Source: a virus. Taken from it: a stretch of 64,000 nucleotides of DNA. Position 1 is the stretch's first letter, and each line of letters starts with the position of its first letter. Of the stretch, positions 6,257 through 10,070 are shown piece after piece. Both the position numbers and the translations under genes were made by a program. The stretch is from UHGV virus genome UHGV-0066004. The stretch is one strand, 5' to 3'. The notes beneath the pieces were generated by a model. The model was not told where the DNA came from. It ran no database searches and saw only the letters and a program-made list of their open reading frames with translations.

Positions 6257-6512
6257 ATTAAATCTTTTTAGAGAACTTCTAAGAACCTAAGCAACAAGGT
6301 TCCACAACAAGCTGTAATAACCTTAGAAGCCCTCTAAAAAGACCTAAAAAGGTCTTTGCATAGTCTTGTTTAATCCGGTGACTAGAACCTTTGGAGAGCT
6401 TGATATTATCTCTTCTCCGTGACACATACTAGGTGCTTTACTGTGCTTGTACGACAATACACGAGGGATACCAAAGCAACATCCGAATGAAGCTTGGCTT
6501 TAAACCTTATTA

Positions 6513-6602
6513 GGCGGTAAGTAAAGGAGTCGAACCCTCACCGTATCTCTACAGTGGCAACTGTTTTCAAGACAGTTTGGCTACCATTAGCCGCTACCTA
6601 CC
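6513..6602 (-). tRNA. tRNA-Ser(TGA), type II
   Basis: 90 nt, T-arm GAGGGTTCGACTCC, anticodon stem ACTGT/ACAGT, loop CTTGAAA, long variable arm. Confidence 0.6.
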
Positions 6603-6615
6603 CCTAATAAGACTT

Positions 6616-6698
6616 TGGCATGGGACGGAGGAGTTGAACCCCTTTGAAACGGTTTTGGAGGCCGTTGCTCATGCCTTAGAGTCTTAACATCGTCCCAT
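6616..6698 (-). tRNA. tRNA-like, 83 nt, anticodon unresolved
   Basis: Perfect acceptor ATGGGAC/GTCCCAT and T-arm GGGGTTCAACTCC; internal AACGG/CCGTT hairpin with 9-nt loop; cannot assign anticodon. Confidence 0.3.
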
Positions 6699-6917: not shown

Positions 6918-7164
6918 ATTAATCTTTAAAGACTCTCTTAGAAAGCCCTTAAAGATGCCCACCTTATTAATCATACCGTGGGCTAGTACGCCAAATTCTT
7001 TGATGAGGGATTGGAAGACCTCACTGGTGTTTAGCCTATCAAGCTACTGCCAGAAAAACATTGTCGTTTGCATTTATTTTAAATTTGCAAAATAGACGCT
7101 ACGCAACGAAAACTAAGGTTACTATAAAGTAGTCACATCTCAATGTCAACAACTTTATTGAAAT

Positions 7165-7240
7165 TGGTACTGGTAGGTGGAATCGAACCACCGATGTTCC
7201 CTTATCAGGGGAGTGTTATAACCTTCTTAACTATACCAGC
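7165..7240 (-). tRNA. tRNA-Ile(GAT)
   Basis: T-arm GGTGGTTCGATTCCACC, loop CTGATAA. Confidence 0.6.
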
Positions 7241-7322: not shown

Positions 7323-7398
7323 TGGTAGAAGTGGAGGGATTCGAACCCATCGCCTGTCAGATTAAAAGTCTGCTGCATCACCATTCTGCTACACTTCC
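7323..7398 (-). tRNA. tRNA-Lys(TTT)
   Basis: T-arm GGGTTCGAATCCC, loop CTTTTAA. Confidence 0.55.
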
Positions 7399-7403
7399 AT
7401 TAA

Positions 7404-7546
7404 ATTATCTTTGTAGATAAGCTACCCAGACTTGCTTAAGGTCTGTAGCGATGTGCCTTGTTGGGTTTAAATCTAGAATTTACCCTTTCACCCTTTGTGG
7501 TCGCATACTCACAGGTAAGCTTAATAACTTATCTACAAAGATAATT
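7404..7546. repeat. pair of inverted 18-bp hairpin elements (TTATCTTTGTAGATAA / TTATCTACAAAGATAA) about 107 bp apart
   Basis: Exact reverse-complement arms at 7404-7421 and 7529-7546, each arm itself a 5-bp stem hairpin. Confidence 0.7.
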
Positions 7547-7589
7547 ACCAGACCGTTGTTTATCATCTTAAGTGCTACCATTACACCAA

Positions 7590-7680
7590 CTCGACATCTG
7601 CCGAGTGAAGGAATCGAACCTTCGCCTTTTCTTTACCGGAGAAATAGATTGTTTAAGTTTTGCTGTAAACGGTCTTCTGT
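7590..7680 (-). pseudogene. tRNA fragment or pseudo-tRNA (T-arm only)
   Basis: Perfect T-arm GAAGGTTCGATTCCTTC with acceptor-like 3' strand but no matching 5' acceptor strand and no CCA. Confidence 0.3.
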
Positions 7681-7826
7681 AAATTTGTTGAGCCAGACCA
7701 AGTTTAAATTTTCAAAATTAAATTGGCTTGAAATTTCATACGTTCTTGCTGTATTTGGTCTTCTGCTCCTTTAAAGGATACTCGTAAGGACCCTTTAAGG
7801 GAGGGGCTAAATAGCCCTCTCAAAAT

Positions 7827-7904
7827 TGGCGGTTACGAAGGGATTTGAACCCTCATCATCTCCCGTGACAGGGGAGTATTTTAACCAAATTAAACTACAT
7901 AACC
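7827..7904 (-). tRNA. tRNA-Asp(GTC)
   Basis: T-arm GAGGGTTCAAATCCCTT, anticodon stem CTCCC/GGGAG, loop CTGTCAC. Confidence 0.65.
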
Positions 7905-8083: not shown

Positions 8084-8160
8084 TTAATACATTGCCAGAC
8101 CGTGTTTTTTCTTTTATCCGCAAAAAGTATTTTGTTGCTGAATACGGTCTTCTGCAAAAT

Positions 8161-8237: not shown

Positions 8238-8327
8238 ATTCTCAATGACCAGACCAAATATCTTCTTTGTCCGATTTCGTGTCAGATGAGTAGATTAAGT
8301 TTGCTGTAATTGGTCTTCTGTCAAAAC

Positions 8328-8654: not shown

Positions 8655-10070
8655 TTACCAGATATAACGGTCAATCATTACTGCTTTGAGCATTACACTG
8701 ATTGGGTCAAACTTCTCACCACCAAGCAGAGCTTTTAAAGTAGCTGGAGAAAAACCAGATACCATTGCTACACCGTTATCCTTAACAGACACTTCGCAAG
8801 TACCATTACGGTTTGCTAAGTACCAGAATACCAGTTGAGGCATTTCGTATCCAGCTTTTTTGTACTTACTCTGAATTGCTTCAAAGTTTGTACGACCGTT
8901 AGCTCCATCAACCTGATTGAACTCCATATCGGAGAAGATGATAAGCTTACTTGGCATATCTTTCTGAGTCAAGTTGTTTCTTTTACCTGTTTCAAGAATA
9001 CGGTCAAAAGCTGCTTGTAAGTTAGTTGAGCCATATTCAACGTGTCGCATCACCTGACGATGACGGTTTCGTAAATCACCACTCAGTTCGATGAAGTGAG
9101 GGTTTGTTGAATAAACCATCAACTCATTCTTAAAGCAACCTGTATTACGTTCTGCTACATACAATGCAAGTGAAACACCAATATCAAGAGCAGTAATTGA
9201 ACCAAAATTCACCCAAGACATTGAGCTTGAAACATCAGACATACACAAGATGTTTTCACCCTCTGCCATCCAGTTTGGTAGTGCTTTCCACTGCTCATTA
9301 GCAACATCTGCATTACCATACTTAACAGATTTAATTACATCGTATGGGTAAACAGCACCAGCATTAATCTTAGTCTCACCCTTTGATAAGGACTCGATGT
9401 AAGCTTTGTAGCGTTCTCCATCTTTGCGGTTAAACAGTTTTTGGTAACGTGCAGCAGCAAGTGAAGGAATCTTACTGTAGTCAATCTTACCAAACTCATT
9501 AGCAGAGATTTTTTGCTCAACTGTATCAGATAGTGCAGACAACAGTGTGCGGTACTCTTTCTCACTCAAGTTGGCAAACTTGCAGAAACGTTTTACAAAC
9601 TGCTTATGACGTGGTTTGACTCGTGGTAACCACTTAGCCGCCAAACCTGCTGTTGCAGGGTCTAGTAATGCTGCTTCTAGATGTTTGAAGGCATCTGTCT
9701 CGAAACAAGTACCTACGAAGATTTTGAAGTCATCAAAACGACCAAGTTCTGCAATCTTATCCATAATGCGAAGAACCTGCGTAGGCTCTAAAACTTTGTC
9801 TTCAATCGCTTGAAGTAAAACAGTTCTGAAGGCTTTACGCTCACCCATACCTTCTCGTACATCTCGCATATGAAGCAAAATACGAACTGCAACATCAACA
9901 TCCTCACGCAAAGCTTTGTAGAACAGGTCTGGTAAGATTTCTACGTTGCTACGGCTTGAACCAGCAGCTTTGTAAAAGTCTACAAGAGCAGACATTGATG
10001 AAGTATGGTTTACAGCACCATTTTCAGTTCGACCTGCATGAAGGTGCGCATGTTTAAATAATTCGCTCAT
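8655..10070 (-). CDS. von Willebrand factor A (vWA) domain protein, possibly TROVE/Ro-like
   Basis: 471-aa ORF; C-terminal MIDAS-type DxSxS (DVSSSM) and hydrophobic beta strands (LIIFSDMEF); TROVE assignment is a guess. Confidence 0.55.
   Translation of the reverse strand: MSELFKHAHLHAGRTENGAVNHTSSMSALVDFYKAAGSSRSNVEILPDLFYKALREDVDVAVRILLHMRDVREGMGERKAFRTVLLQAIEDKVLEPTQVLRIMDKIAELGRFDDFKIFVGTCFETDAFKHLEAALLDPATAGLAAKWLPRVKPRHKQFVKRFCKFANLSEKEYRTLLSALSDTVEQKISANEFGKIDYSKIPSLAAARYQKLFNRKDGERYKAYIESLSKGETKINAGAVYPYDVIKSVKYGNADVANEQWKALPNWMAEGENILCMSDVSSSMSWVNFGSITALDIGVSLALYVAERNTGCFKNELMVYSTNPHFIELSGDLRNRHRQVMRHVEYGSTNLQAAFDRILETGKRNNLTQKDMPSKLIIFSDMEFNQVDGANGRTNFEAIQSKYKKAGYEMPQLVFWYLANRNGTCEVSVKDNGVAMVSGFSPATLKALLGGEKFDPISVMLKAVMIDRYIW

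What the first reader, a model, noticed from the sequence alone, without database searches (positions are those of the whole stretch)
7404..7546. Two copies of an 18-bp hairpin element in inverted orientation flanking about 107 bp next to tRNA-Lys
TTATCTTTGTAGATAA (7404-7421) and its exact reverse complement (7529-7546) are each self-complementary hairpins. Together they could form a long cruciform or stem, or mark a small invertible or mobile segment.
Basis: seen in the sequence. Interest (0 to 1): 0.4.

Follow-up and report, generated by a model that had tools for sequence, protein, structure and literature searches.

The report
Conserved long RNA stem before tRNA-Lys
The inverted repeat is real, but it is the 24-base-pair closing stem of a conserved, roughly 145-nt structured RNA in a Felix O1-like phage's tRNA operon, sitting next to previously unrecognised Y-RNA-like genes that accompany the phage's Ro60-like protein, and it is not an invertible or mobile DNA segment.

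Summary
The repeat exists: 19 nt exact, 22 nt at 95%, and 24 bp as RNA when G·U pairs are counted. It lies in a Felixounavirus tRNA array, on the transcribed (minus) strand, and ends 4 nt before tRNA-Lys(UUU).

Across 22 sequence variants the stem is 98% paired, with four compensated pairs, one co-deleted pair and conserved U·G pairs. This is selection on an RNA helix, not on a DNA cruciform. The self-complementarity inside each arm is not conserved. None of about 250 related genomes carries the interior inverted.

A paralogous long stem (6258-6347) abuts tRNA-Leu. The element follows four modules of one architecture: a closing stem, then a single-stranded UUNCAGCAA motif. One of them is a circularly permuted tRNA mimic like bacterial YrlA. 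All lie downstream of a DUF2828 protein whose model matches Ro60. The same modules flank DUF2828 genes in 52 of 75 distant phage loci.

A model built from those distant modules finds the window's canonical modules but not this element, so it is a neighbour of the family and not a member.

Most likely it is a double-stranded processing stalk, probably cut by RNase III, enclosing a small RNA with an AAGCAA-loop hairpin. That mechanism is inferred, not shown.

The parts
7523..7546 (-).
   Evidence: 98.1% of cells paired across 22 variants. Compensated pairs at alignment columns 8/152, 16/144, 23/137 and 28/132. Co-deleted pair at 19/141.
7403..7426 (-). It is followed by UAAU and then G+1 of tRNA-Lys.
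   Evidence: The conserved U·G pairs (columns 24/136 and 27/133) work only as RNA on this strand.
7427..7445 (-). Inner 3' hairpin P4: CAGAC-C UUAAGCAA-GUCUG. The 9-nt loop CUU(A/U)AGCAA is conserved.
   Evidence: One compensated pair (G-C to A-U). The loop and the 3' flank GUCUGG resemble the CAGCAA modules.
7463..7485 (-). Hairpin P3 with the invariant apex AUUCUAGAU. The basal helix differs between lineages (GGGU/ACCC versus AGC/GCU).
7488..7518 (-). Variable 5' sub-domain P2. Its sequence is replaced between type A and type B; a small helix is kept by G-C to C-G exchange.
   Evidence: columns 40-42 / 57-59
7323..7398 (-). tRNA-Lys(UUU). Its 5' end lies 4 nt after the stem.
7548..7681 (-). 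Module Yd: closing stem AGACCGUU/AACGGUCU, then UUUACAGCAA, then a circularly permuted tRNA mimic (T-arm, closed 7-bp acceptor, D-arm; core 7572-7623). It ends 3 nt before M3.
7693..7767 (-). Module Yc (CAGAAGACCAAAUACAGCAA...UUGGUCUGG)
   Evidence: 21.3 bits with a model built from distant phages
8095..8156 (-). Module Yb
   Evidence: 29.9 bits
8249..8322 (-). Module Ya
   Evidence: 31.6 bits
6258..6347 (-). LS2, a paralog of M3: a 27-bp stem ending 1 nt before tRNA-Leu(UAG). It has the same 3' tail ...AAAGAUUUAAU and a conserved loop UGUUGCUU.
8655..10070 (-). Ro60-like protein (DUF2828 + DUF7788; TROVE-like ring plus vWA). It is the first gene of the unit, upstream of the tRNA array.

Best explanation
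The two 'copies' are the two strands of one RNA helix. The element (M3, window 7403-7546, read on the minus strand) is a roughly 145-nt structured domain of the polycistronic transcript that carries the phage's tRNAs and its Y-RNA-like modules. A 24-bp, nearly perfect double-stranded stem brings its ends together. The stem encloses about 96 nt that form two conserved hairpins (apex AUUCUAGAU; loop CUU[A/U]AGCAA) and one variable sub-domain.

Shown here:
- the helix is maintained by selection at the RNA level on the tRNA strand;
- it has a paralog (LS2) in the same array;
- both abut a tRNA 5' end;
- it is neither inverted nor mobile in relatives.

Inferred:
- The helix is two turns of dsRNA, which is much longer than the 7-10 bp closing stems of the neighbouring modules. 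It therefore most likely acts as a processing stalk cut by host RNase III, as in rRNA precursors and the T4 tRNA precursor.
- Cleavage would separate the upstream Y-like RNA Yd from tRNA-Lys, shorten the tRNA-Lys leader for RNase P, and release the interior as a small RNA.
- The interior's AAGCAA-loop hairpin (flanked by CAGAC/GUCUGG) is a collapsed version of the motif shared by the four neighbouring modules. The released RNA may therefore join the same Ro60-like ribonucleoprotein.
For: Repeat and fold: (z = -5.8).

Comparative support:
- 22 distinct variants from Felixounavirus and Mooglevirus are 98.1% paired in the long stem, with 4 pairs changed on both sides, one pair deleted on both sides, and 0 double changes in all slid controls.
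- RNAalifold recovers the same stem and P4 on its own, with 7 of 30 pairs compensated.

Strand:
- U·G pairs are conserved.
- The covariance model scores 151.7 bits on the minus strand against 28 bits on the plus strand.
- All 26 tRNAs are on the minus strand.

Position:
- The stem ends 4 nt before tRNA-Lys.
- The paralog LS2 ends 1 nt before tRNA-Leu, has the same tail, and has its own compensatory changes.
- Stems of at least 18 bp ending 0-4 nt before a tRNA occur at 7 of 234 tRNAs, against 0 in a shifted control.
- The 47%-identity outgroup L017 has a 22-bp stem of similar sequence enclosing a CAGCAA module just before tRNA-Pro.
- No promoter or terminator is predicted at M3 or LS2, so both are internal to the transcript.

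Precedent: RNase III takes part in T4 tRNA maturation (PMC4810235).

Context:
- The upstream protein has a Ro60-like fold and was noted as such in Bas63.
- There are four CAGCAA modules directly upstream of M3.
- The motif family is about 8-fold enriched beside DUF2828 genes.
Against: - There are no expression or cleavage data. RNase III cutting and release of the interior are inference from helix length and from analogy.
- Most compensatory changes separate two main lineages (type A and type B), so the number of independent events is small.
- The alignment of the 5' half of the interior between types is uncertain.
- M3 is not detected by the model of the CAGCAA family, and the AAGCAA resemblance is short.
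- M3 is dispensable in at least one isolate: SP116 lost half of Yd, all of M3 and most of tRNA-Lys in a single deletion.
- The conserved interior hairpins are more than a plain RNase III site would need, so the stalk reading may be incomplete.
Confidence: 0.6

Rival explanations
1. M3 is itself a Y-like RNA. The long stem is the docking helix for the Ro60-like protein (as Ro60 binds the stem of Y RNAs), and the interior recruits an effector. RNase III plays no part.
For: - M3 has the overall Y-RNA layout: a 5'/3' stem plus a large interior.
- It lies 1.1 kb downstream of the Ro60-like gene and on the same strand, inside the distance criterion used by Chen et al..
- The AAGCAA loop and GUCUGG flank resemble the neighbouring modules.
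- Bacteria have a second 'long hairpin' Y RNA (YrlB/Yrn2) that is co-processed with YrlA.
Against: - M3 is not recognised by the family model R2.
- It lacks UUNCAGCAA after the 5' strand, having AAGCUUA or GAGCUAA instead.
- Its stem is three times longer than those of the 120 or so family modules.
- No M3-like element lies next to DUF2828 genes in 75 distant loci.
- YrlB-type hairpins have small pyrimidine-rich loops, not a 96-nt interior.
Confidence: 0.2
2. M3 is a decayed or highly divergent tRNA-like gene with an extended acceptor stem. It has a cloverleaf-like layout: a closing stem plus three hairpins, with a P3 loop UUCUAGA that resembles an anticodon loop carrying CUA.
For: - Four-way topology in the MFE fold.
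- P4 abuts the 3' strand as a T-arm would.
- Other phage arrays hold tRNAs enclosed by 14-bp extensions of their acceptor stems (L019, L058, L090).
- The apex UUCUAGA is invariant.
Against: - ARAGORN and the Rfam tRNA model find nothing at M3, even at E <= 1.
- There are no T-loop or D-loop consensus sequences.
- The P3 stem is irregular.
- The interior is about 96 nt, where about 62 nt would be expected.
Confidence: 0.07
3. DNA-level element: a cruciform, a recombinase-invertible segment, or a small mobile element bounded by inverted repeats.
For: A 19-nt exact inverted repeat with about 100 bp between the arms. The plus strand also folds well as a single strand.
Against: - No inverted isolate among about 250 genomes.
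- Fixed position in every genome, with no other copies.
- No recombinase gene nearby.
- Conserved U·G pairs and the strand asymmetry of the model.
- The interior evolves by substitution and replacement while the arms co-vary, which is an RNA signature.
Confidence: 0.03
4. The region codes for a small protein (for example the 107-aa plus-strand ORF at 7451-7774, or the 28-33 aa ORFs), and the repeat is incidental.
For: ORFs exist, and some GenBank records annotate 'hypothetical protein' here.
Against: - Single-base indels among close relatives inside these ORFs (A3 columns 65 and 68; A4 column 41).
- The ORF runs antisense through tRNA-like sequence.
- The substitution pattern follows base pairing, not codons.
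Confidence: 0.02

Closest known systems
RNase III processing stalks in polycistronic stable-RNA precursors (E. coli rRNA operons; the phage T4 tRNA cluster)
   Same: A long (at least 20 bp), nearly perfect helix formed by sequences that flank an RNA, inside a multi-gene stable-RNA transcript and directly next to a tRNA. RNase III is reported to take part in T4 tRNA maturation (PMC4810235).
   Different: Cleavage has not been shown here. The enclosed RNA is not an rRNA or tRNA but a 96-nt domain with conserved hairpins of unknown role. There is no sequence similarity to the T4 or rRNA sites.
Bacterial and phage Y RNAs bound by Ro60 (YrlA, YrlB/Yrn2; Thermus phage phiLo Yrl1/Yrl2)
   Same: The genes lie within about 1-2 kb of a Ro60-type gene on the same strand. 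Several RNAs come from one precursor. One RNA is a tRNA mimic with T-arm, closed acceptor and D-arm (module Yd here). A companion RNA is closed by a long stem.
   Different: The protein is a DUF2828 family member that is recognisable as Ro60 only by fold. The conserved single-stranded motif is CAGCAA, not GNCGAA. M3 lacks even that motif in the canonical place, and its interior is large and branched. Rfam finds no Y-RNA match.
Stable RNAs of unknown function in the phage T4 tRNA cluster (species 1 and 2, rnaC/rnaD); recalled from memory and not checked here
   Same: Small structured non-tRNA RNAs encoded among phage tRNA genes and co-processed with them.
   Different: No sequence or structure comparison was made. 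T4 has no Ro60-like gene next to its cluster, as far as I recall.

Membership tests
CAGCAA-motif Y-like modules next to DUF2828/Ro60-like genes (family defined here) | Single-stranded (U)U-N-CAGCAA 1-4 nt after the 5' strand of a 7-10 bp closing stem | tested here: not met
   After its stem, M3 has AAGCUUA (type A) or GAGCUAA (type B). AAGCAA occurs only in the loop of the inner hairpin P4.
CAGCAA-motif Y-like modules next to DUF2828/Ro60-like genes (family defined here) | Recognised by a covariance model built from 27 modules of distant phages | tested here: not met
   Ya scores 31.6 bits, Yb 29.9 and Yc 21.3, the top three hits of the window. Yd gets a partial hit of 13.4 bits. There is no hit at 7403-7546 at E <= 10.
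CAGCAA-motif Y-like modules next to DUF2828/Ro60-like genes (family defined here) | Same strand as, and close to, the Ro60-like gene | tested here: met
   M3 is 1.1 kb downstream of 8655-10070 on the minus strand. Family density is 0.66 per kb near the gene against 0.06-0.09 per kb elsewhere.
Bacterial Y RNA, YrlA type (Chen et al. 2014) | T-arm, closed acceptor-like stem-loop and D-arm in permuted order | tested here: not met
   This is not met for M3. It is met for the neighbouring Yd: a strict scan hits it with 0 hits in the control, the acceptor helix has 3 compensated pairs, and ARAGORN calls the re-permuted sequence a tRNA.
Bacterial Y RNA, YrlA type (Chen et al. 2014) | GNCGAA(N0-1)G motif near the 5' end | tested here: not met
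   A few type-B variants have GCCGAAG in the interior, but it is not conserved (GCCGAUG in the others, absent in type A).
Bacterial Y RNA, YrlA type (Chen et al. 2014) | Bound by Ro60 in vivo | not testable with these tools
   Needs RIP or CLIP.
RNase III substrate | About two turns (at least 20 bp) of mostly Watson-Crick dsRNA | tested here: met
   24 bp in type A and 23 bp with one mismatch in type B. LS2 has 27 bp.
RNase III substrate | Staggered cleavage by RNase III leaving 2-nt 3' overhangs | not testable with these tools
   Needs an in vitro cleavage assay or end mapping in wild-type against rnc hosts.
Invertible DNA segment or inverted-repeat mobile element | Both orientations, or several insertion sites, found among isolates | tested here: not met
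   the inverted query gives about 81% identity at best; a single fixed locus with no further copies.
tRNA | Cloverleaf with T-loop and D-loop consensus, detected by ARAGORN or Rfam RF00005 | tested here: not met
   no hit on 7399-7550.
Intrinsic terminator | G+C-rich hairpin followed by a U run on the transcribed strand | tested here: not met
   no terminator-like site at M3 on the minus strand. The stem is A+U-rich and is followed by UAAU and then the tRNA.

The most novel reading that the evidence does not exclude
M3 and its paralog LS2 are long-stem members of an undescribed phage ribonucleoprotein system. In this system, a Ro60-like DUF2828 protein assembles with an array of CAGCAA-motif Y-like RNAs encoded between the tRNA genes; in Bas63 this protein counters the Ppl defence. 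M3 would be the piece that couples this particle to production or protection of tRNA-Lys(UUU), the classic target of anticodon nucleases. For example, its AAGCAA loop could bind the protein, or it could pair with the complementary UGUUGCUU loop of LS2.
Probability: 0.2. Interest if true: 0.8.

Novelty: new variant of a known kind. Interest (0 to 1): 0.55.

Why it matters
Taken alone, the repeat is a conserved RNA helix in a tRNA operon, which is useful but modest.

Its neighbourhood matters more. A 2024 preprint showed that the Ro60-like protein of a Felix O1-like phage counters a bacterial defence system. It guessed that some 'tRNA genes' might be its Y RNAs but did not identify any.

This work points to concrete candidates in the inter-tRNA spacers: four CAGCAA modules, one of them a permuted tRNA mimic. 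It also shows that the same RNA architecture flanks DUF2828 genes in most distant phages examined.

That makes the partnership directly testable. It would also extend Ro60-Y RNA biology to a large protein family that is not recognisable as Ro60 by sequence. The long-stem elements M3 and LS2 are the unexplained extra components of that locus.

Tried and rejected
- **Rfam at permissive thresholds**, on the window and on 11 related loci. Only tRNAs and one tmRNA were found, nothing on M3 or the modules.
- **Sequence-level link of the protein to solved structures.** Only a marginal Ro60 hit in the MIDAS motif, E = 0.85. The fold search was needed.
- **Searching the M3 model in 75 distant DUF2828 loci.** No homologs, so M3 is confined to Felixounavirus and Mooglevirus.
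- **Metagenome scan with an interior-anchored pattern, to gain M3 diversity.** The pattern was too loose, and its gap range (20-40) missed type B, which has a 19-nt spacing. Only 5 near-identical type-A copies were recovered.
- **Hammerhead-like reading of type B's CCGAUGAG.** Rejected by eye: the core is CUGAUGA, and there is no Rfam hit.
- **GNCGAA motif as a Ro-binding site in Yd or M3.** Not conserved.
- **Promoter or terminator role.** No supporting sites.
- **Supplementary tables of Chen et al. 2014**, to see which 22 phages they listed. These are not held in the library.
- **Pair counts on alignment A5** are partly circular, because the modules were selected for having a stem. I rely on the strand and position enrichment and on the cross-search instead.

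Full report
**Observation.** The window is a Felix O1-like myovirus (Felixounavirus): 433 phage records match the region. It carries 26 tRNA genes, all on the minus strand. The reported inverted repeat is real: arms 7403-7424 and 7525-7546, 22 nt, 95% complementary, 100 nt apart. The repeat lies in the 428-nt spacer between tRNA-Asp (7827-7904) and tRNA-Lys(UUU) (7323-7398). Folded as RNA on the tRNA strand, the 152 nt give -48.3 kcal/mol, z = -5.8, with a 24-bp terminal stem once G·U pairs are allowed. The 18-mer has no other close copy in the window.

**Is it selected, and on which molecule?** The spacer is shared by 252 phage records. I collected 22 distinct variants of the element from GenBank phages and IMG/VR contigs. 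They fall into type A (window-like) and type B (some Felixounavirus plus Mooglevirus, about 75-86% identical).
- On the alignment the long stem is 98.1% paired.
- Four pairs changed on both sides (U-A/C-G, C-G/U-A, C-G/G-C, G-C/U·G).
- One pair is deleted on both sides together.
- The slid controls show no double change at all.
- RNAalifold finds the same stem without being told.
- Two U·G pairs are invariant and a third A-U/G·U alternates. These would be C·A mismatches on the plus strand.
- A covariance model of the element scores 151.7 bits on the minus strand and 28 bits on the plus strand.

So the object under selection is an RNA helix on the tRNA transcript. Most of the changes separate two lineages, so the number of independent events is small.

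The 6-bp palindrome inside each arm (TTATCT/AGATAA) exists only in type A. Type B arms (for example AUCCUCUUUGCAGUGAC) are not self-complementary, yet they still pair with each other. A query with the interior inverted finds at best about 81% identity over its length, against 95-99% for the native order. None of about 250 sequenced relatives therefore has the segment flipped. The element is always in the same place. The ORFs overlapping it are broken by single-base indels among close relatives. No promoter or terminator is predicted at it.

**Anatomy of the element (M3).** Inside the stem, both lineages keep two hairpins.
- One has the invariant apex AUUCUAGAU on a basal helix whose sequence differs between lineages (7463-7485).
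- The other, right against the 3' strand, is CAGAC-C UUAAGCAA-GUCUG (7427-7445). Its 9-nt loop CUU(A/U)AGCAA is conserved and it has one compensated pair.
- The 5' third of the interior is largely replaced between types, apart from a small compensated helix.
- The stem's 3' strand is followed by UAAU and then G+1 of tRNA-Lys. Its 5' strand starts 3 nt after the module described next.

**Surroundings.** Just upstream of the array lies a 471-aa protein (8655-10070, minus strand) with Pfam DUF2828 + DUF7788 and PHROG 'RNA-binding protein'. By sequence it barely touches Ro60 (E = 0.85). Its AlphaFold model (pLDDT 86.6) matches full-length Ro60/TROVE structures as the top ten PDB hits: X. laevis Ro60, D. 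radiodurans Rsr and Thermus phage phiLo Ro60, with E of 3e-8 to 1.5e-6 and TM up to 0.63. After these come only isolated vWA domains. This agrees with a preprint on Bas63, a Felixounavirus. There gp130 resembles Ro60 and counters the Ppl defence, and the authors guessed that some annotated tRNAs might be Y RNAs but did not identify any.

**Y-like modules.** Between the tRNAs downstream of this gene the window has four modules of one design: Ya 8249-8322, Yb 8095-8156, Yc 7693-7767 and Yd 7548-7681. Each reads CAGAAGACC-NNN-U(A/U)-CAGCAA ... NNN-GGUCUGG, that is, a 7-8 bp closing stem with a single-stranded CAGCAA just after its 5' strand.

Yd additionally contains a T-arm (GAAGG-UUCGAUU-CCUUC), a 7-bp 'acceptor' closed by a loop, and a D-arm (GUGU-AAUGGUA-GCAC). 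This is the permuted order described for bacterial YrlA.
- The acceptor helix has three compensated pairs across lineages.
- In Mooglevirus its 3' strand is followed by GCCA.
- When the sequence is re-permuted in silico, ARAGORN calls it a tRNA, but not in its native order.

**Generality.** In 75 IMG/VR loci encoding DUF2828 proteins only 39-47% identical to this one, the same design recurs.
- A CAGCAA motif with a closing stem of at least 7 bp occurs at 0.66 per kb on the gene's strand within 700 nt of the gene, against 0.06-0.09 per kb elsewhere or on the other strand. 52 of 75 loci have at least one.
- Many are about 58-nt minimal modules whose A+U-rich insert repeats (A)AGCAA.
- Others carry permuted tRNA mimics, with 0 hits in a reversed-sequence control of the strict scan.
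- Rfam 15 has no family for them.
- A covariance model built only from 27 distant minimal modules ranks Ya, Yb and Yc as the three best hits in the whole window (31.6, 29.9 and 21.3 bits) and touches Yd.
- The pair statistics on that training alignment are partly circular, because the modules were chosen for having a stem.

**Where M3 fits.** The family model does not detect M3. M3 lacks CAGCAA after its 5' strand, its stem is three times longer than the family's, and the M3 model finds nothing in the distant loci. It is therefore not a canonical member. It is still related to its neighbours in three ways.
- Its inner hairpin looks like a module collapsed to stem, AAGCAA, stem, with the same GUCUGG flank.
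- It has a paralog, LS2 (6258-6347). LS2 has a 27-bp stem with its own compensatory changes in type-B phages, the same 3' tail (...AAAGAUUUAAU), and ends 1 nt before a tRNA.
- In the 47%-identity outgroup L017, a 22-bp stem of similar sequence encloses a CAGCAA module and ends 3 nt before tRNA-Pro.

Stems of at least 18 bp ending within 4 nt of a tRNA 5' end occur at 7 of 234 tRNAs in these loci, and never in a shifted control. M3 and LS2 are the longest.

**Mechanism.** The following are shown: a conserved RNA helix of two turns, internal to a polycistronic tRNA/ncRNA transcript, abutting a tRNA. The following is inferred: such a helix is the natural substrate of host RNase III. RNase III cuts the stalks that enclose rRNAs and is reported to take part in T4 tRNA maturation. 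Cutting here would separate Yd from tRNA-Lys, trim the tRNA-Lys leader, and free the interior RNA. The conserved interior hairpins suggest that this RNA has a role of its own, possibly in the Ro60-like particle. The main rival is that M3 is simply another protein-bound Y-like RNA.

Deletion variants show how M3 is linked to its neighbours. SP116 lost half of Yd, all of M3 and most of tRNA-Lys in one deletion, by recombination between T-arms. ESCO49 and warpig lost upstream modules but kept M3 with tRNA-Lys. So M3 travels with tRNA-Lys and is not essential.

**Verdict.** The invertible or mobile reading is rejected, and the 'long stem' reading is upheld at the RNA level. The element is a new variant of a known kind: a processing-stalk-like structured RNA in a stable-RNA operon. 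The locus matters mainly because it exposes a widespread, undescribed family of Y-like RNAs for DUF2828/Ro60-like phage proteins.

Noticed in passing
window 8249-8322, 8095-8156, 7693-7767, 7548-7681 (minus strand): Four related modules lie between tRNA genes, each reading CAGAAGACC-NNN-UA-CAGCAA ... GGUCUGG. The last one contains a circularly permuted tRNA mimic. The same architecture flanks DUF2828 genes in 52 of 75 distant phage loci, and Rfam has no family for it.
   Followed up: yes
window 8655-10070 (minus strand): A DUF2828 + DUF7788 protein whose predicted structure matches full-length Ro60/TROVE + vWA. By sequence alone the link is not significant.
   Followed up: yes
window 6258-6347 (minus strand): A second long-stem element (27 bp) ends 1 nt before tRNA-Leu(UAG). 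It is a paralog of the finding. In some relatives a different tRNA follows the same ...GAUUUAAU junction.
   Followed up: partly
window 6284-6321 (LS2 loop) and 7427-7445 (M3 inner hairpin): The conserved LS2 loop UGUUGCUU(A) is complementary to the AAGCAA motif: 7 nt against M3's loop in type A and 5 nt in type B. A loop-loop contact is possible but does not clearly co-vary.
   Followed up: no
window 6922-6956 (minus strand): A 15-bp hairpin ends ...CUUUAAAGAU, followed by UAAU and then tRNA-Arg(UCU). This is the same tail as M3 and LS2, so it may be a short third member of the 'stem before tRNA' class.
   Followed up: no
L006-L008 (Mooglevirus Yd), L075 6563-6618, L058 4502-4570: In several permuted tRNA mimics the acceptor 3' strand is followed by GCCA or ACCA inside the closing loop. 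RNase P cleavage and trimming would then leave a CCA end, as reported for M. smegmatis YrlA.
   Followed up: partly
L009 (Salmonella phage SP116) about 1190-1240: A deletion joins the T-arm of module Yd to the T-arm of tRNA-Lys. It removes half of Yd, all of M3 and most of tRNA-Lys, which indicates recombination between T-arm sequences.
   Followed up: partly
window 7470-7480 (minus strand): The invariant apex AUUCUAGAU contains the palindrome UCUAGA. As a 7-nt loop UUCUAGA it would fit the anticodon-loop pattern U33-CUA-R37. No tRNA detector supports this.
   Followed up: partly
L019 about 6576-6675, L058 about 7630-7733, L090 about 7062-7167: tRNAs (or tRNA-like RNAs) in other DUF2828 phages are enclosed by roughly 14-bp extensions of their acceptor stems, formed by the flanking sequences.
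   Followed up: no
L088 8696-9187: A tmRNA gene (85.5 bits) lies about 2.3 kb downstream of a DUF2828 gene in a viral contig.
   Followed up: no
window 7121-7149 (minus strand): A near-consensus sigma-70 promoter (TTGACA-17-TATAGT, 11 of 12 matches) lies just downstream of tRNA-Ile. It is annotated as a promoter in phage ASO1A, so the array is probably more than one transcription unit.
   Followed up: no
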